Below, piece by piece: positions 22,370 to 29,744 of a DNA stretch of 64,000 bases. A program made the position numbers and the translations under genes. The notes under the pieces are model-generated. The model saw only the letters and a list, made by a program, of their open reading frames with translations. It had not been told where the DNA came from and ran no database searches. The stretch comes from a virus. The stretch covers positions 12,786 through 76,785 of the IMG/VR virus record IMGVR_UViG_3300005095_000173. One strand, written 5' to 3'. Position 1 is the stretch's first letter; every line of letters begins with the position of its first letter.

Positions 22370-22821
22370 TCCTCCTCATCAGGTTTAGGACATACTCGCT
22401 TAGCAATATTAATTACTCCATTTGTTAATCTTTCTTCTAATTCAGATAAACTACCGAATTCATGTTGTACGCCACCTGGTGGGTTTGATAACCAGGTAAA
22501 CACATAAGACAATGCCACATTTCCTTCAACAGTAAGTGGGTCATAACTCTTTCCGTAATAGTCATTTGTTTGGTAAATTCCCTGTTCAAGAATGTCCCAT
22601 AACTTTCTTGCATACCATTCTAATACTGCTTTCTTAAGTGTGTCATTCAACGGTAAGTCATCAATGCTACTGTAAACATTATTTAGTTCTTCTCCCTCAG
22701 CAAATTTCAACGCCTTCTTCAATACCTCTGGAGAGTATACAGAACCTAAAGTTTTCACTAACTCATCTTCAGGAATTTGATACTTCAATCGGTTGAAAAT
22801 GGATTTCTTACTCATTACCAT
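22363..22821 (-). CDS. hypothetical protein
   Basis: coupled ORF with RBS. Confidence 0.65.
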   Translation of the reverse strand: MVMSKKSIFNRLKYQIPEDELVKTLGSVYSPEVLKKALKFAEGEELNNVYSSIDDLPLNDTLKKAVLEWYARKLWDILEQGIYQTNDYYGKSYDPLTVEGNVALSYVFTWLSNPPGGVQHEFGSLSELEERLTNGVINIAKRVCPKPDEEDW

Positions 22822-24593
22822 GCTCCTCGGTTTTTTGCGTTTCTCCAGGCATAAAACACATGAGGGTAAATACTTTCTAAAATCTTCTCAACACCTTGGG
22901 CTACCTCTCTTGCTTCATATTGTGCGTGTTCAGATAGCCGTAAATCAAGAAAATGTAGCCAGTTTCGGATATTAGCAGTCATGTAAAACTTTGTCATCAT
23001 GCTTACAGGTAATAATGCACGTGCCTGCTCTTTTACAACTCCTAATTCCAATGCTCTCTTGTATTTATTGAGAGAACTATTATAATTATCTACTAACATT
23101 TCAATATATTCTTCAGCCGCCTCTTCACTAATATATTCTGGAGATACAAATCTAACTTGTTCTTTTGGTGGAAACCAAAATTTAATTTCTGATTTCGTGT
23201 ACCTACGACTAATTTCATTGTAAGAATTATGGGTAATAATTCCATTACCAATAAAATTGTGATAAGGCCCTTCCACAACAATATCATAAGTGTCTTCCAC
23301 ACCAACAAACGAAATTCTCCTTACTTTCACAGGTTTGGCTCCAAATTTTTTTGCTGGCTTTGGTCTCTTATACGTTCCTAATTGTTTGTGAAGTTTCTTA
23401 TGGCATTCTTCACATACAGAAATTAGATTATTAAAATCATATGCCAATTCTGGGTATTCTACAACGGGCTTAATATGATGAGCATGTAATTTACCTCCAA
23501 GTTTTCCGCATACCTGACAAGTATAATCATATTTTTTATGCACTTTATGCGCTATTTGAGTAGTCCAACGTGCTATTTTCTGTCTTTCAGTAGAAACTCC
23601 TCCTCTCCAAAAATTTGATTTTGGTCCACTTCTTGCTTCTCGTATCTTTTGCTTCTGTTCTTCAGTTACTATTCGATTAATTTTATACCCTTTTAGCCCT
23701 TTATTCCAAGGTGGTTTTCCATTTACTCCCAATAAATTCTGTAAAGGATCAAATTGTAATCCAAACTTTTTGAGATATTTTCTAATCGTAGAATAACTAC
23801 ACCCAGCCGCATCCGCCATCTGTTGAACAGACCATCCTTTTTCTCTTTTATCCTTCAACCACAGTTTATTTCTATAAAGTGGTTCTCCATTAGTAAGAAA
23901 CCAACAATCTTTAGTCATGGCCCAAGTATTCCCTTTTTTAACTAATCCAACAGCATCTTCTAAACGCTCCCAACCATTCATAGTAAGAAATTTATGGTCT
24001 TTAGTCGCTTTTATACTCTTGCCGTCTTCTAACTCGACTAAAAATACTTCTTTTTTACCACTATAGATAATATCTTGAATATGTCCAACTGTAAATTCTT
24101 TATTTTCTTCATCATAAACTCTCAATAACTTATTCTGTATTCTTTTCTTACTAAATTCATTTTTGTGAAACCTATTATATAATTCTTTAATAGTATGAAG
24201 TCCAGGTCTAGATTCGTCCTGAGCAACATTATGTCCGTATTTTCTGTACCTATCTGGTCTAACAAATGTTATTTTTGTGTCCCCAGATAAGCAAAAAGTT
24301 CTATGTCGCATAATCTGACGGGCAATAAAGATTGGCGTTTCAATTAGTACAGTAGCAGAAATATGCTCAAATGGGCCTAAGTGCCCATCATTCATTAATC
24401 TCTGTAGCAATTCAAAATCTTTTTCATACCCTTTACTACGATCATTAAGATTATAACTTACTCGTGCAGCTTCAACTACACGATAACTGTTTCCCATATA
24501 ATCAACAAGTACAATCGTAGTTCCGTCTACAAAACTATGAAATTTAATAACATCATTCTCACATACTGAATAGAAACACTTTTCAGATAGCAT
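22815..24593 (-). CDS. thyX: flavin-dependent thymidylate synthase with intein
   Basis: AARVSY, GHLGPFEH, RQIMRHRTF|intein|SYNEISRRY, EQARALLP, HAQYE. Confidence 0.92.
   Translation of the reverse strand: MLSEKCFYSVCENDVIKFHSFVDGTTIVLVDYMGNSYRVVEAARVSYNLNDRSKGYEKDFELLQRLMNDGHLGPFEHISATVLIETPIFIARQIMRHRTFCLSGDTKITFVRPDRYRKYGHNVAQDESRPGLHTIKELYNRFHKNEFSKKRIQNKLLRVYDEENKEFTVGHIQDIIYSGKKEVFLVELEDGKSIKATKDHKFLTMNGWERLEDAVGLVKKGNTWAMTKDCWFLTNGEPLYRNKLWLKDKREKGWSVQQMADAAGCSYSTIRKYLKKFGLQFDPLQNLLGVNGKPPWNKGLKGYKINRIVTEEQKQKIREARSGPKSNFWRGGVSTERQKIARWTTQIAHKVHKKYDYTCQVCGKLGGKLHAHHIKPVVEYPELAYDFNNLISVCEECHKKLHKQLGTYKRPKPAKKFGAKPVKVRRISFVGVEDTYDIVVEGPYHNFIGNGIITHNSYNEISRRYTKSEIKFWFPPKEQVRFVSPEYISEEAAEEYIEMLVDNYNSSLNKYKRALELGVVKEQARALLPVSMMTKFYMTANIRNWLHFLDLRLSEHAQYEAREVAQGVEKILESIYPHVFYAWRNAKNRGAW
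23226..24293 (-). mobile_element. intein (356 aa) with HTH-NUMOD3-HNH homing endonuclease
   Basis: CLSGDT start, ATKDH block B, TYDI...THN end before Ser; internal CQVC...HAHHI...NL...CEECH. Confidence 0.9.
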
Positions 24594-27687: not shown

Positions 27688-27728
27688 TTATACCCTCCTT
27701 TCAGGAATATTTGTTATTAGTCTACAAG

Positions 27729-27801
27729 AGCCCTGGGTGGGATTTGAACCCACACACTGATGCTTAGAGGGCACCTGCTCTGTCCGTTGAGCTACCAGGG
27801 C
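27729..27801 (-). tRNA. tRNA-Arg(UCU), atypical C33, no encoded CCA
   Basis: acceptor GCCCTGG/CCAGGGC, D-loop with A20, anticodon arm GGTGC-CCTCTAA-GCATC, T-arm GTGGG-TTCAAAT-CCCAC. Confidence 0.85.
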
Positions 27802-27807
27802 ATGGAA

Positions 27808-27868
27808 CAGGGGCACTTTTACTAAAATTTTCAAGAATTTAGTATAAATGTATTGCGGAAGTGCCCCT
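27808..27868 (-). ncRNA. UUCMGCAA structured RNA element, copy E
   Basis: AGGGGCAC/GTGCCCCT closing stem, TTCCGCAA, inner hairpin with loop CTTGAAA. Confidence 0.7.
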
Positions 27869-27906
27869 TATAGCCGCTCTTTCTCTTCTACTCAAGGAGG
27901 TGAAAG

Positions 27907-29385
27907 CTAAAAGTCGTAACGTGGATTACCAATAACCTTCAACATCAACATAATAGGATTGAATAAACTCTCATCTAATTCCATTACTTGTTTCATAATC
28001 TCAGTAGAGTACCCAGAAATAAGCACTGCACCACTTTCATGCTCCCTTACTGGAAGATTTCCAGTGCTCCGAGACATAACATTCCAGTAAATAATTTTTG
28101 GCATTTCGTACCCAGCCGCCAAGAATTTTTGTTTCATTACTTCATGATTAGTTTTATCCCATTTGAAGGTAACTCGGTTACTGAAATAAGAATACCCAAA
28201 TGTTGCCACATCAAACTCCATATCGGAGATAATTAGCAGATACTTTGGCATTTCTTCTTGTTTAAGATTATGTTCTTTAGCATAAGATAGAATTAAGTCG
28301 AATGCCGCCTGCAAGTTGGTGTTTGCTACTTCTGCGTTCTCCAATAATGTTTTCACCTTCTGGTAAACATTTCCAGGAATGTGCAGTAACCGTGGGTTCT
28401 CGCTGAAAGTAAGAACAATATCATTCCAAGGTGCAGGTTGCTTATCCGCAATATACACACCAAGAGAAACTGCAACGTCAAGAGCCGAAAGATTGCCACT
28501 AATCTTTGACTTCATGCTTCCAGATAAATCAACCATTGGTAGAATAAACCCATCTGTTTTCTCTAATGTGTTAGGTAATTGTTCCCACTGCGTCAATAAT
28601 ACATTTAGTTCATCTGTAGTTAGTCGTGAGTCCATCATCTGAGAAGTAATGTGGTAAGGAAATGCTACCGATAAGTTCATTTTCTCTTCGCCACGTTTTA
28701 CTTTTTCAATGTATTCACGATAACGATATTCATCATGGCGGAGAAAAGCATTTCGGTAACGAATCCCAGCAATAGATGGGACTTGAGAATAATTGATTTT
28801 ATCCCATTCATTAGCAGACATCTGTTGTTCAACAGTCTTAGACAAACTCGAGATTAGCTTACGGTATTCTCGCATTGTTAATCCAAGATTGCGTGCGATT
28901 ACTTTGGCCAACCCAGGCCACTTCTTTGACTTCTCCCGTGGAAGCCATTTTGCTAAAAGTCCATCTTGTAGCTCAAGACCACGTTGTACTTTCCAAAACC
29001 ACTTGTCAGGAAACAGTACAAACATATCATCCCAACGCCCAATCTCAGGGATCTTATCAATAATGCGATAAAAAACATCTTCAGTAATAGCATTATTAAT
29101 CTCAAGCCACTTTAGAAACTCTCGGAATACTCGACGCTCACCAGCACCGCCGCGGGCATCACGCACCCATAGCATTACACGAATAGTAAGATAGGGATCA
29201 TCTTTCCATGCCCGATCAAACATCTCCCATAATTTATCTACTTCCGCGGAGCGCATTGCTGGAATTTTGAAAAACAGATCTAGAACATGGTTGCCCGTAG
29301 AATTATAGGTTAGGGCGCCGTTCTCGGTTCGTCCAAATCCATTACGAATACGGTCTGTACTTTCGCTTTTGATTTCATTCCACAT
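27907..29385 (-). CDS. DUF2828 / TROVE(Ro60)-like protein with C-terminal vWA domain
   Basis: TENGA..YNSTG..LDLF N-terminus, RDARGGAGER, GRWDD, AKWLPRE, MIDAS DLSGSM, NTN, ISDMEFD, YWNV, SGYS. Confidence 0.85.
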   Translation of the reverse strand: MWNEIKSESTDRIRNGFGRTENGALTYNSTGNHVLDLFFKIPAMRSAEVDKLWEMFDRAWKDDPYLTIRVMLWVRDARGGAGERRVFREFLKWLEINNAITEDVFYRIIDKIPEIGRWDDMFVLFPDKWFWKVQRGLELQDGLLAKWLPREKSKKWPGLAKVIARNLGLTMREYRKLISSLSKTVEQQMSANEWDKINYSQVPSIAGIRYRNAFLRHDEYRYREYIEKVKRGEEKMNLSVAFPYHITSQMMDSRLTTDELNVLLTQWEQLPNTLEKTDGFILPMVDLSGSMKSKISGNLSALDVAVSLGVYIADKQPAPWNDIVLTFSENPRLLHIPGNVYQKVKTLLENAEVANTNLQAAFDLILSYAKEHNLKQEEMPKYLLIISDMEFDVATFGYSYFSNRVTFKWDKTNHEVMKQKFLAAGYEMPKIIYWNVMSRSTGNLPVREHESGAVLISGYSTEIMKQVMELDESLFNPIMLMLKVIGNPRYDF

Positions 29386-29387
29386 AT

Positions 29388-29449
29388 CAGTACCTCCTTT
29401 GCTCTACCACAAGCAATATGTTGGTTATAATAATTGCTGAAAAGGTACT
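29388..29449 (-). ncRNA. UUCMGCAA structured RNA element, copy D (overlaps RBS)
   Basis: AGTACCT/AGGTACT stem, TTCAGCAA, inner TTGCT/AGCAA hairpin. Confidence 0.65.
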
Positions 29450-29469
29450 TACAAAGTACTAAAACTATA

Positions 29470-29526
29470 CAGTGCCGCAAGTCCATTATGCCAGGAAGGG
29501 CGAGATGTTTGCTGAAATGCGGCACT
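29470..29526 (-). ncRNA. UUCMGCAA structured RNA element, copy C
   Basis: AGTGCCGCA/TGCGGCACT stem, TTCAGCAA, inner GCC-CTTCCT-GGC. Confidence 0.68.
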
Positions 29527-29546
29527 AATTATATATCTTCAATCTA

Positions 29547-29612
29547 CTGGAGCACAATTAGCGGGGTTGGTTTACAATACCAATGCTTTATAATATTTGC
29601 GGAAGTGCCCCA
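29547..29612 (-). ncRNA. UUCMGCAA structured RNA element, copy B
   Basis: TGGGGCAC/GTGCTCCA stem, TTCCGCAA, inner TTGGT-ATTGTAA-ACCAA. Confidence 0.7.
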
Positions 29613-29635
29613 TAGTCTATTTATAATCTATTTAC

Positions 29636-29697
29636 CAGCACCACATGATTTGCACTTCTGCCATAGAAATGTTTTTATTGCTTGCGGAAGTGGTGCT
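29636..29697 (-). ncRNA. UUCMGCAA structured RNA element, copy A
   Basis: AGCACCAC/GTGGTGCT stem, TTCCGCAA, inner CATTTCT-ATGGC-AGAAGTG. Confidence 0.7.
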
Positions 29698-29715: not shown

Positions 29716-29744
29716 ATTATAACACGCTCTCTCTAATTTGTCAA
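29716..29744 (-). promoter_or_regulatory. sigma70 promoter for the RNA array and DUF2828 gene
   Basis: TTGACA-17 bp-TATAAT. Confidence 0.85.

What the first reader, a model, noticed from the sequence alone, without database searches (positions are those of the whole stretch)
27808..29697. Inner hairpins of the array resemble different tRNA anticodon arms (decoy library?)
Seen: copy B has a perfect 5-bp stem with 7-nt loop AU-UGU-AA (Thr; the neighbouring tRNA-Thr loop is CU-UGU-AA). Copy E has loop CU-UGA-AA (canonical Ser-UGA) on an extended stem. Weaker cases: D contains UU-GUG-G (His-like, 8-nt loop), C has CU-UCC-U (Gly-like, 6-nt loop) and A has UA-UGG-CA (Pro-like). Inference: each RNA displays a different anticodon loop as a decoy or competitive inhibitor of anticodon nucleases or tRNA-sensing defences. 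Alternatively, the variable parts act as base-pairing guides.
Basis: partly seen in the sequence, partly recalled or inferred. Interest (0 to 1): 0.78.

Follow-up and report, generated by a model that had tools for sequence, protein, structure and literature searches.

The report
Phage Ro60-like protein's small partner RNAs
Five small hairpin RNAs around a phage gene for a Ro60-shaped ring protein belong to a large RNA family that I found in no paper or RNA catalogue; about one short member in six carries a near-perfect copy of a tRNA anticodon arm, but only one or two of the five here do.

Summary
The hairpins are real. All five share one "handle": a 7-10 bp closing helix followed on the 5' strand by UUC(C/A)GCAA. 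They flank, on the same strand, a 492-aa protein whose predicted fold is Ro60 (HEAT ring plus vWA/MIDAS).

The same handle lies beside this gene in phages of Campylobacter, Listeria, Staphylococcus, Bacillus, Aeromonas, Escherichia and Mycobacterium. In 74 loci not used to build the model, all 81 model hits lie on the gene's strand.

The anticodon-arm claim holds only in part for this window:
- B is clean (5 bp plus AUUGUAA).
- E is close (CUUGAAA, with a U·U mismatch in the stem).
- A, C and D fail.
- The window alone is not significant (P about 0.14-0.36).

Across the family the pre-stated test passes twice. CU-NNN-AA 7-nt loops on stems of 4 bp or more number 16 against 1.1 expected, and 15 against 0.6 in an independent set, with at least 14 different anticodons. 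Long members carry YrlA-like T/D tRNA mimics.

Best reading: these are Y-RNA-like partner RNAs whose variable part displays tRNA pieces. A decoy role against anticodon nucleases is plausible but untested.

This scan has already noted the same protein-RNA pairing on many other genomes.

The parts
29716..29744 (-). Sigma-70-type promoter (TTGACA, 17-nt spacer, TATAAT, with extended -10 TG) at the head of the RNA-protein operon
   Evidence: 12 of 12 consensus match. It is one of four such promoters in a repeated 38-nt family.
Closing helix AGCACCAC/GUGGUGCU, handle UUCCGCAA, inner 6-bp stem with loop UAUGGCA. Not anticodon-like.
   Evidence: Covariance model R1: 28 bits, E 6e-4. The element was in the seed alignment.
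Closing helix (U)GGGGCAC/GUGCUCC(A), handle UUCCGCAA. The inner hairpin at 29583-29567 is 5 bp plus the 7-nt loop AUUGUAA (loop at 29578-29572), which looks like a Thr-UGU anticodon arm.
   Evidence: R1: 26.6 bits.
10-bp closing helix, handle UUUCAGCAA, inner GCC/GGC stem with the 6-nt loop CUUCCU. Not anticodon-like.
   Evidence: (z -3.3). R1 gives only 10.4 bits, because the longer stem is out of register in the seed alignment.
Closing helix AGUACCUU/GAGGUACU, handle UUCAGCAA. The 3' arm (29396-29389) overlaps the Shine-Dalgarno AGGAGG (29398-29393) of the Ro-like gene, whose ATG is at 29385.
   Evidence: R1: 38 bits, E 2e-6. Rfam Dicty_Class_I_RNA: 19.7 bits, below threshold.
27907..29385 (-). 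492-aa Ro60-fold protein: a HEAT-repeat ring plus a vWA domain with a MIDAS motif. Pfam DUF2828 + DUF7788 + VWA_2; PHROG 850 'RNA-binding protein'.
   Evidence: AlphaFold2 with a 36-sequence alignment: pLDDT 87, pTM 0.87. The top 13 Foldseek PDB hits are all Ro60/TROVE. The MIDAS residues D286, S288, S290, T356 and D388 are invariant.
Closing helix AGGGGCACUU/AAGUGCCCCU, handle CCGCAA. The inner hairpin at 27844-27820 carries the loop CUUGAAA (27835-27829), which looks like a Ser-UGA loop, with a U.U mismatch in the stem. The element ends 7 nt before tRNA-Arg.
   Evidence: (z -4.4). R1: 37.6 bits. The same loop occurs on a different stem downstream of the gene in L005.
27728..27801 (-). tRNA-Arg(UCU), co-oriented and directly downstream of el5. 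RNase P cleavage at its 5' end would release el5.

Best explanation
**What the stretch is.** It is one phage operon, read on the minus strand:
1. a strong sigma-70 promoter;
2. three small hairpin RNAs (el1-el3);
3. a fourth hairpin (el4) whose 3' arm covers the ribosome-binding site;
4. a Ro60-fold ring protein;
5. a fifth hairpin (el5);
6. tRNA-Arg.

**What the hairpins are.** They are miniature Y-RNA-like partner RNAs of that protein. Their shared 'handle' is a 7-10 bp terminal helix beginning (A)GG, then UUC(A/C)GCAA on the 5' strand, and a 3' end CUG. The handle is the presumed docking site for the ring. It corresponds to the conserved helix and 5'-strand motif of Y RNAs.

**The variable interior.** This is the cargo or effector module. 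Across the family it is often a tRNA part:
- an anticodon-arm look-alike in about one short member in six;
- a YrlA-type T-arm, closed acceptor and D-arm mimic in about one long member in five.

**Proposed role.** The particle would bring the Ro-like ring together with proteins that recognise tRNA. The candidates are host tRNA-cleaving defence nucleases, tRNA repair enzymes or tRNA-processing enzymes.

**Shown versus inferred.**
- Shown: the fold of the protein; the family, its strand and position linkage to the gene, and covariation in the closing helix; the enrichment of anticodon-type and T-type loops.
- Inferred: that the protein binds the handle; that the RNAs are cut out of the transcript (RNase P at tRNA-Arg for el5); that the cargo engages tRNA-binding proteins; that el4 couples protein level to its own translation.
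For: **Protein**
- The model is confident (pLDDT 87, pTM 0.87).
- The top 13 PDB matches are all Ro60/TROVE structures over the full length. They include phage phiLo Ro60 (9KOP, E 2e-9), Xenopus Ro60 (1YVP, TM 0.60) and Rsr (2NVO).
- The MIDAS motif is invariant.

**RNA family**
- The exact 11-mer CACUUCCGCAA occurs three times in the 76.8-kb genome, all at this locus.
- The fixed-register consensus is A-G-G-W-U-N-N-N-U-W-C-A/C-G-C-A-A.
- In intergenic DNA of 166 homologous loci the motif occurs 253 times on the gene strand and 47 times on the other strand. A perfect 7-bp stem in register accompanies 62% of the former and 2% of the latter.
- The covariance model finds 19 of 19 hits next to, and co-oriented with, the Ro-like gene in five complete phage genomes.
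- It finds 81 of 81 hits on the gene strand in 74 loci not used to build it.
- All 7 helix pairs covary.
- The handle is present in phages of Campylobacter, Listeria, Staphylococcus, Bacillus, Fusobacterium, Aeromonas, Felix-O1-type Escherichia and Mycobacterium.

**tRNA-like cargo**
- Anticodon-type loops are enriched in a discovery set and in a replication set.
- An unbiased logo of 7-nt loops shows C at position 1, U at position 2 and A at positions 6-7.
- The same loop sits on different stems: CUGUUAA on 5 stems, plus CUUGAAA, CUUCUAA and CUCAUAA.
- T-loops number 10 against 0.12 expected, and 12 against 0.14.
- Long members hit Rfam YrlA below threshold, at 30-42 bits.

**Context from papers**
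- Y RNAs are encoded within 4 kb of Ro60 on the same strand (PMC4201824).
- Phage phiLo Ro60 binds adjacent Y-like RNAs (PMC12135203).
- The Felix-O1-type phage Bas63 protein gp130 is Ro60-like, lies next to tRNA genes and counters the Ppl defence system (PMC11482910).
Against: - There is no binding or expression data for any member. No sequencing run was listed for this phage.
- The handle differs from the established Ro60-binding motifs (GGUCCGA, GNCGAA, CGAA).
- The protein does not match Pfam TROVE by sequence.
- Many homologous loci at 28-30% protein identity show no handle. The Stenotrophomonas DLP_6 and Erwinia jumbo-phage loci show none either.
- Most short members, and three of the five here, carry no recognisable tRNA part.
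- The sets used for pair counts were selected or fitted for the helix. The strand and position controls carry the weight, not the pair counts.
Confidence: 0.65

Rival explanations
1. Each RNA displays a different anticodon loop and acts as a decoy, sponge or competitive inhibitor for anticodon nucleases or other tRNA-sensing defences, alone or held by the Ro-like ring.
For: - The family-level enrichment of canonical anticodon arms was replicated.
- At least 14 anticodons occur, including Lys-UUU, Asn-GUU, Tyr-GUA, Arg-UCU and Met-CAU.
- Members of one array carry different anticodons.
- Some hairpins repeat the tRNA-Lys-type arm UUUGA-CUUUUAA-UCAAA (L099 and L086).
- Defence nucleases are known to recognise the anticodon stem-loop: AriB of the PARIS system does (PMC11464382).
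- A homologous protein counters a defence system (PMC11482910).
- This phage's own tRNA-Arg has an unusual C33.
Against: - Only about 16% of short members fit.
- In this window only one element is clean and one is near, which is not beyond chance on its own.
- No nuclease assay exists.
- Ppl, the one defence system linked to a homolog, is not known to cut tRNA.
- Mimic anticodons and neighbouring phage tRNA genes show no clear rule.
- Real anticodon nucleases often need modified bases or the whole tRNA body. This point rests on established knowledge and was not tested here.
Confidence: 0.17
2. The tRNA likeness reflects ancestry rather than present function. On this view the handle was grafted onto tRNA genes or fragments in phage tRNA arrays. 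The anticodon-type and T-type loops are leftovers, and the RNAs serve the Ro-like protein in some way that has nothing to do with tRNA recognition.
For: - The elements sit inside tRNA arrays.
- Some handles enclose whole ARAGORN-detectable tRNAs: L213 1375-1467 with tRNA-Glu, and L180 396-518 with tRNA-Ile.
- Most members have lost any tRNA look.
Against: - Identical loops are kept on stems that differ by paired changes. Examples are L111 versus L113 for CUUGUAA, and five different stems for CUGUUAA. That points to selection on the arm.
- The enrichment is about 15-fold or more in two independent sets.
Confidence: 0.12
3. The hairpins are ordinary operon punctuation, such as terminators, RNase processing or stability elements, or a translational operator. 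They are not stand-alone RNAs.
For: - The 3' arm of el4 overlaps the Shine-Dalgarno sequence.
- el5 abuts a tRNA.
- The downstream element of L005 is followed by a U run.
Against: - The five hairpins in the window have no U tract after them.
- A 16-nt sequence-specific handle kept from Mycobacterium phages to Campylobacter phages, in arrays of up to nine copies, is not what punctuation looks like.
Confidence: 0.05
4. The variable parts are base-pairing guides that direct the ring protein to target RNAs.
For: The interiors are variable, largely unpaired and A-rich.
Against: The longest complements to either strand of the 64-kb window are 10-13 nt, the same as for shuffled interiors. The host genome is unknown, so host targets could not be tested.
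Confidence: 0.03

Closest known systems
Ro60 (Rsr/TROVE2) with Y RNAs: bacterial and phage YrlA/YrlB (Rfam RF02553; Chen et al. 2014, PMC4201824) and Thermus phage phiLo Ro60-Yrl1/2 (PMC12135203)
   Same: - A ring protein with the Ro60 fold and a vWA/MIDAS domain.
- Small RNAs encoded within about 2 kb on the same strand.
- The 5' and 3' ends form a helix, with a conserved 5'-strand motif next to it and a variable second module.
- Long relatives carry the YrlA T-arm, closed acceptor and D-arm core.
- The short ones resemble YrlB in lacking that core.
   Different: - The protein belongs to Pfam DUF2828/DUF7788, not TROVE, by sequence.
- The handle is AGG..UUC(A/C)GCAA, not GGUCCGA, GNCGAA or CGAA.
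- No window element reaches any Rfam threshold.
- Arrays hold 3-9 copies.
- The cargo can be an anticodon arm, which YrlA lacks.
Class I RNAs of dictyostelid social amoebae (Rfam RF01414; Kjellin et al. 2021, PMC7919456)
   Same: - About 60 nt long, with a 6-7 bp terminal stem that covaries.
- The conserved motif CCUUACAGCAA lies directly after the 5' arm.
- The rest is variable and A-rich, the start is AAG-like and the 3' end is CUG(U).
- Six elements of Aeromonas phage LAh_6 and window el4 align full-length to the model.
   Different: - The scores are below the gathering value of 41.5 bits (19.6-29.6 bits).
- The Class I RNAs are eukaryotic genes with a DUSE promoter.
- Their known binder is the RRM protein Rnp1A.
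- The paper reports them as unique to Dictyostelia.
- Whether dictyostelids encode a DUF2828 protein was not tested here.
tRNA anticodon stem-loop
   Same: - el2 has 5 bp plus a 7-nt loop with U33, A37 and A38.
- el5 has the loop CUUGAAA.
- Relatives carry exact CU-NNN-AA loops on 4-6 bp stems.
   Different: There is no D arm, T arm or acceptor, so these are not tRNAs. el2 has A32, el5 has a U.U mismatch in its stem, and el1, el3 and el4 do not fit.
Phage tRNA-based counter-defence (T5 tRNA-Lys against PARIS, PMC11464382)
   Same: Both sit in phage tRNA-array neighbourhoods. In both, the anticodon stem-loop is the feature that matters.
   Different: Those are working replacement tRNAs with altered arms. 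These are mini-RNAs that cannot be charged, and they are tied to a Ro-like protein.

Membership tests
Ro60/TROVE protein family | HEAT-repeat ring followed by a vWA domain (overall Ro60 fold) | tested here: met
   The model has pLDDT 87. The top 13 Foldseek PDB hits are Ro60 structures aligned over about 520-570 columns, TM 0.38-0.62.
Ro60/TROVE protein family | MIDAS motif (DxSxS...T...D) in the vWA domain | tested here: met
   D286, S288, S290, T356 and D388 are invariant in 13- and 36-sequence alignments.
Ro60/TROVE protein family | Sequence match to Pfam TROVE (PF05731) | tested here: not met
   Only DUF2828, DUF7788 and VWA_2 match. vWA_Ro60 is marginal, in 6 of 36 members. A profile search against PDB hits phage Ro60 only over the vWA start, E 1e-3.
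Ro60/TROVE protein family | Binds Y RNA on the outer surface of the ring | not testable with these tools
   No binding assay and no RNA-protein modelling tool were available.
Y RNA / YrlA (Rfam RF02553) | 5' and 3' ends pair into a terminal helix, and the RNA is encoded near Ro60 on the same strand | tested here: met
Y RNA / YrlA (Rfam RF02553) | Ro60-binding motif GGUCCGA / GNCGAA(N)G near the 5' end | tested here: not met
   The handle reads UUC(C/A)GCAA. In the LeBron YrlA-like element the Rfam alignment starts after CAGCAA and does not place it on the model's CGAA.
Y RNA / YrlA (Rfam RF02553) | tRNA-like T-arm, closed acceptor and D-arm core | tested here: not met
   None of the five window elements has it. 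Long relatives do, at 30-42 bits against a gathering value of 69.
Dictyostelid Class I RNA (Rfam RF01414) | Short terminal stem plus the 11-nt motif CCUUACAGCAA next to the 5' arm, and a 3' CUG | tested here: inconclusive
   The architecture and the CAGCAA core are shared. Window el4 scores 19.7 bits and the best relative 29.6 bits, against a gathering value of 41.5. el1, el2 and el5 have CCGCAA.
tRNA anticodon arm (mimicry, not membership) | 5-bp stem closing a 7-nt loop with Y32, U33 and R37 | tested here: inconclusive
   In the window, el2 meets all but Y32, el5 meets the loop but not the stem, and el1, el3 and el4 fail. In the family the feature is enriched about 15-fold or more in two sets.

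The most novel reading that the evidence does not exclude
Phage Ro60-like rings carry interchangeable sets of anticodon-arm and tRNA-elbow look-alikes on a common handle. They use them as decoys or adaptors against host enzymes that cut or sense tRNA, with each phage holding its own anticodon set. The same handle in the orphan Class I RNAs of social amoebae would then mark a eukaryotic branch of this particle, bound by a DUF2828 protein.
Probability: 0.15. Interest if true: 0.9.

Novelty: new variant of a known kind. Interest (0 to 1): 0.74.

Why it matters
**Ro60 biology.** What Ro60-Y RNA particles do in bacteria and phages is still unclear. This branch is found in 711 of 50,697 phage records. 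It has a simple, recognisable handle and cargo that is often a tRNA piece. That makes the question testable in laboratory phages such as Bas63 and other Felix-O1 types, Listeria P100 and Campylobacter Fletchervirus.

**Testable prediction.** The replicated anticodon-arm enrichment gives a concrete prediction for the contest between phages and tRNA-cutting defences.

**Annotation.** None of the 11 public records inspected annotates these RNAs.

**Amoebae.** The match to the handle of dictyostelid Class I RNAs could give those unexplained RNAs a candidate protein partner.

Tried and rejected
- **No close relative.** Megablast of the locus against phage records found nothing. No relative exceeds about 43% protein identity, so orthologous copies of the five elements could not be compared.
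- **Poor first model.** Single-sequence AlphaFold2 gave pLDDT 45 and was discarded.
- **False lead.** The first motif lead, TCCGCAA on the opposite strand downstream of distant homologs, turned out to be a conserved coding segment of a convergent gene.
- **Distant homologs.** Homologs at 28-30% identity showed no handle under my scan.
- **Guide hypothesis.** Complementarity was at chance level.
- **RNA repair.** The phage has no RtcB, Rnl-type ligase or CCA-adding enzyme. An RNA-repair role would therefore depend on host enzymes.
- **Expression.** For sequencing runs, none was listed and no RNA holder was listed.
- **Single-protein locus search.** The Bacillus phage protein gave only 2 loci.
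- **Papers.** The supplement of PMC4201824 and the review PMC10870794 were not held. Seven full-text searches found no description of these RNAs.
- **Mimic versus tRNA anticodons.** Comparing mimic anticodons with neighbouring phage tRNA genes gave no rule. About 3 of 20 coincide, and the flanks are incomplete.
- **Recollection not used.** My memory that PARIS also depletes tRNA-Asn and tRNA-Thr was not borne out by the paper text searched, so it is not used.
Full report
**What is there**

The window is 64 kb of a complete 76.8-kb phage genome with terminal repeats. Genes around the finding run on the minus strand. Four perfect sigma-70 promoters (TTGACA, 17-nt spacer, TATAAT) drive, in order, a small gene, tRNA-Thr(UGU), tRNA-Asn(GUU) and the locus of interest.

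From the promoter at 29744-29716 the transcript would contain, in order:
- el1 (29697-29637)
- el2 (29612-29548)
- el3 (29527-29470)
- el4 (29449-29389)
- a 492-aa ORF (29385-27907)
- el5 (27868-27809)
- after 7 nt, tRNA-Arg(UCU) (27801-27728)

All five elements have a closing helix of 8-10 bp, directly followed on the 5' strand by UUCCGCAA, UUCAGCAA or CCGCAA. The exact 11-mer CACUUCCGCAA occurs three times in the genome, all at this locus.

**The observation itself**

- B/el2 is as described: 5 bp close AUUGUAA.
- E/el5 has the loop CUUGAAA, but a U.U mismatch lies next to the closing pair.
- A/el1 has a 6-bp stem with a 7-nt loop UAUGGCA. It has A at position 33 and C at position 37.
- C/el3 has a 6-nt loop.
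- D/el4 has no comparable hairpin.

Shuffles of the five interiors give at least one NU-NNN-RN arm in 14-36% of trials. The window by itself therefore proves nothing.

**The protein**

Pfam gives DUF2828, DUF7788 and VWA_2. PHROG 850 is named 'RNA-binding protein'. A single-sequence fold was poor.

With a 36-sequence alignment the model reached pLDDT 87 and pTM 0.87. Its 13 best PDB matches are all Ro60/TROVE structures over the full length: phage phiLo Ro60, Xenopus and human Ro60, and Deinococcus Rsr. The MIDAS residues are invariant.

By sequence alone it does not reach Pfam TROVE. The profile touches phage Ro60 only at the vWA start.

Homologs occur in 711 phage records. Some are annotated 'Ro-like RNA binding protein'. 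They often sit next to tRNA genes, and in two of the loci inspected (Listeria P100plus and an Erwinia jumbo phage) next to RNA ligase genes.

**The RNA family**

Relatives at 33-41% protein identity carry the same kind of hairpin on the same strand. So do annotated phages of Campylobacter, Listeria, Staphylococcus, Bacillus, Fusobacterium, Aeromonas, Felix-O1-type Escherichia and Mycobacterium. None of these records annotates the hairpins.

Anchored on the motif, the consensus is A-G-G-W-U-N-N-N-U-W-C-A/C-G-C-A-A in a fixed register. All five window elements fit it.

Controls:
- In intergenic DNA of 166 loci the motif is 253 on the gene strand and 47 on the other. A perfect 7-bp stem at positions -10 to -4 accompanies 62% and 2% respectively.
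- Pattern hits are 195 on the gene strand, 17 on the opposite strand and 14 in reversed sequence.
- A covariance model built from 59 short members separates the window's elements (26.6-38 bits; el3 is misaligned at 10.4) from background of at most 15.5 bits. Those elements were in the seed.
- On unseen sequence the model gives 19 of 19 hits beside the gene in five complete phage genomes.
- It gives 81 of 81 hits on the gene strand in 74 new loci, 43 of which have at least one hit.
- All seven helix pairs covary. These sets were chosen or fitted for the helix, so the strand and position controls are the stronger evidence.

**Two kinds of cargo**

Long members (over 75 nt) often hold a T-arm, a closed acceptor-like hairpin and a D-arm in the permuted order of YrlA. 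Rfam's YrlA model matches them at 30-42 bits, against a gathering value of 69. T-loops number 10 against 0.12 expected, and 12 against 0.14. In mycobacteriophage LeBron the Rfam alignment covers the tRNA-like core but not the CAGCAA handle.

Short members, such as the five in this window, hold one small hairpin.

I counted hairpins with a 7-nt loop of the form CU-NNN-AA, with T-loops removed.

| Set | Elements | Stem | Observed | Shuffle mean | Shuffle maximum (of 300) |
|---|---|---|---|---|---|
| Discovery | 147 non-redundant | 4 bp or more | 16 | 1.12 | 5 |
| Discovery | 147 non-redundant | 5 bp or more | 12 | 0.43 | 4 |
| Replication | 95 new, under 80% similar to any in the first set | 4 bp or more | 15 | 0.62 | 3 |
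| Replication | 95 new | 5 bp or more | 13 | 0.28 | 2 |

- The replication loci were fetched afterwards.
- One of the 15 replication hits is a whole tRNA enclosed by a handle.
- Swapped or reversed patterns are not enriched.
- Seven nucleotides is the commonest loop size. The unbiased loop logo shows C at position 1, U at position 2 and A at positions 6-7.
- 22 of 134 short members have the strict form.
- Fourteen anticodons occur: GUU, GCU, UUU, GAA, GUA, UGA, UGU, GAU and others.
- The same loop sits on stems that differ by paired changes. CUGUUAA is on five stems. CUUGUAA is on UUUGA/UCAAA in L111 and on UUCAA/UUGAA in L113.
- CUUGAAA closes the element downstream of the gene both here and in L005, on unrelated stems.
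- Arrays with two such members carry two different anticodons.

The feature still marks a minority of members, including a minority of the five here.

**What it most likely does**

By analogy with Ro60-Y RNA particles, the handle would dock on the ring and the variable module would engage another factor. That analogy rests on two published points: the RNAs are encoded beside the gene on the same strand (PMC4201824), and phiLo Ro60 binds its adjacent Y-like RNAs and host PNPase (PMC12135203).

Here the variable module is often a tRNA piece. tRNA-recognising proteins are therefore the natural candidates.

For a phage, the most attractive candidates are tRNA-cutting defences. AriB reads the anticodon stem-loop (PMC11464382). 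A homolog, Bas63 gp130, counters the Ppl defence and lies next to tRNA genes (PMC11482910). This step is inference.

This phage has no RtcB, Rnl-type ligase or CCA-adding enzyme. A repair role would need host enzymes. A guide role finds no support within the phage.

**Closest known RNA by sequence**

The handle matches that of dictyostelid Class I RNAs. The Rfam consensus has a 6-bp stem, then CCUUACAGCAAU, an A-rich body, the 3' stem and CUG. Six Aeromonas-phage elements (19.6-29.6 bits) and window el4 (19.7 bits) align full-length below the gathering value of 41.5. The published description agrees on every architectural point (PMC7919456).

DUF2828 proteins occur in eukaryotes, bacteria and viruses. 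I could not check dictyostelids.

**Prior notes of this scan**

The same protein-RNA pairing has been reported on many other genomes. My tests were run independently and agree with those notes.

I found no paper or Rfam family that defines these RNAs.

**Verdict**

- The hairpins and their kinship are real.
- They are best read as a new variant of Y RNA tied to a Ro60-fold protein.
- Anticodon-arm mimicry is a genuine, replicated property of part of the family.
- It is weakly represented in this window.
- The decoy function remains a hypothesis.

Noticed in passing
window 27728-27801 (-): The phage tRNA-Arg(UCU) has the anticodon loop CCUCUAA, with C instead of the near-universal U at position 33, on a regular 5-bp stem GGUGC/GCAUC. 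tRNA-Asn and tRNA-Thr have normal CU...AA loops.
   Followed up: partly
window 29389-29398 (-): The 3' arm of el4 (GAGGUACU) overlaps the Shine-Dalgarno AGGAGG of the Ro-like gene, 3 nt before the ATG. Binding or folding of this element could set the protein's own translation. In most relatives the nearest element ends 25-30 nt before the start codon, so this overlap is particular to this phage.
   Followed up: partly
window 30263-30235, 30034-30006, 29910-29882, 29744-29716 (-): There are four near-identical promoter cassettes (a 38-nt repeat family with TTGACA, 17-nt spacer, TATAAT). Each tRNA and the RNA-protein operon has its own.
   Followed up: no
L213 1375-1467; L180 396-518; L128 850-996: In some relatives the handle helix encloses a complete ARAGORN-detectable tRNA (Glu-UUC, Ile-GAU, a Sec-like one). 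These are tRNAs carrying the handle rather than mimics.
   Followed up: partly
L253 3375-3733 (Mycobacterium phage LeBron, downstream of gp53): Three unannotated handle RNAs lie in a 360-nt 'empty' gap. One carries a 5-bp stem with loop AUGGUAA (Thr-GGU-like, with A32 as in window el2). One is YrlA-like (Rfam 39.8 bits). One is a short hairpin.
   Followed up: partly
L086 180-1180 (Aeromonas phage LAh_6) and window 29388-29448: Rfam's Dictyostelium Class I RNA model aligns full-length, below threshold, to these phage RNAs. The shared features are the stem, CUUACAGCAA, an A-rich body and a 3' CUG.
   Followed up: partly
window 22815-24593 (-): A 592-aa ORF joins an HNH endonuclease segment (residues about 250-415) to a thymidylate-synthase segment (residues about 455-585). 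This may be a homing-endonuclease insertion or a fusion.
   Followed up: no
L081 2870-2915 (Stenotrophomonas phage DLP_6, downstream of its Ro-like gene): No CAGCAA handle is present. A terminator-like hairpin there carries UUGGUCCGAGU in its loop, which contains the vertebrate Y-RNA motif GGUCCGA. This may be coincidence.
   Followed up: no
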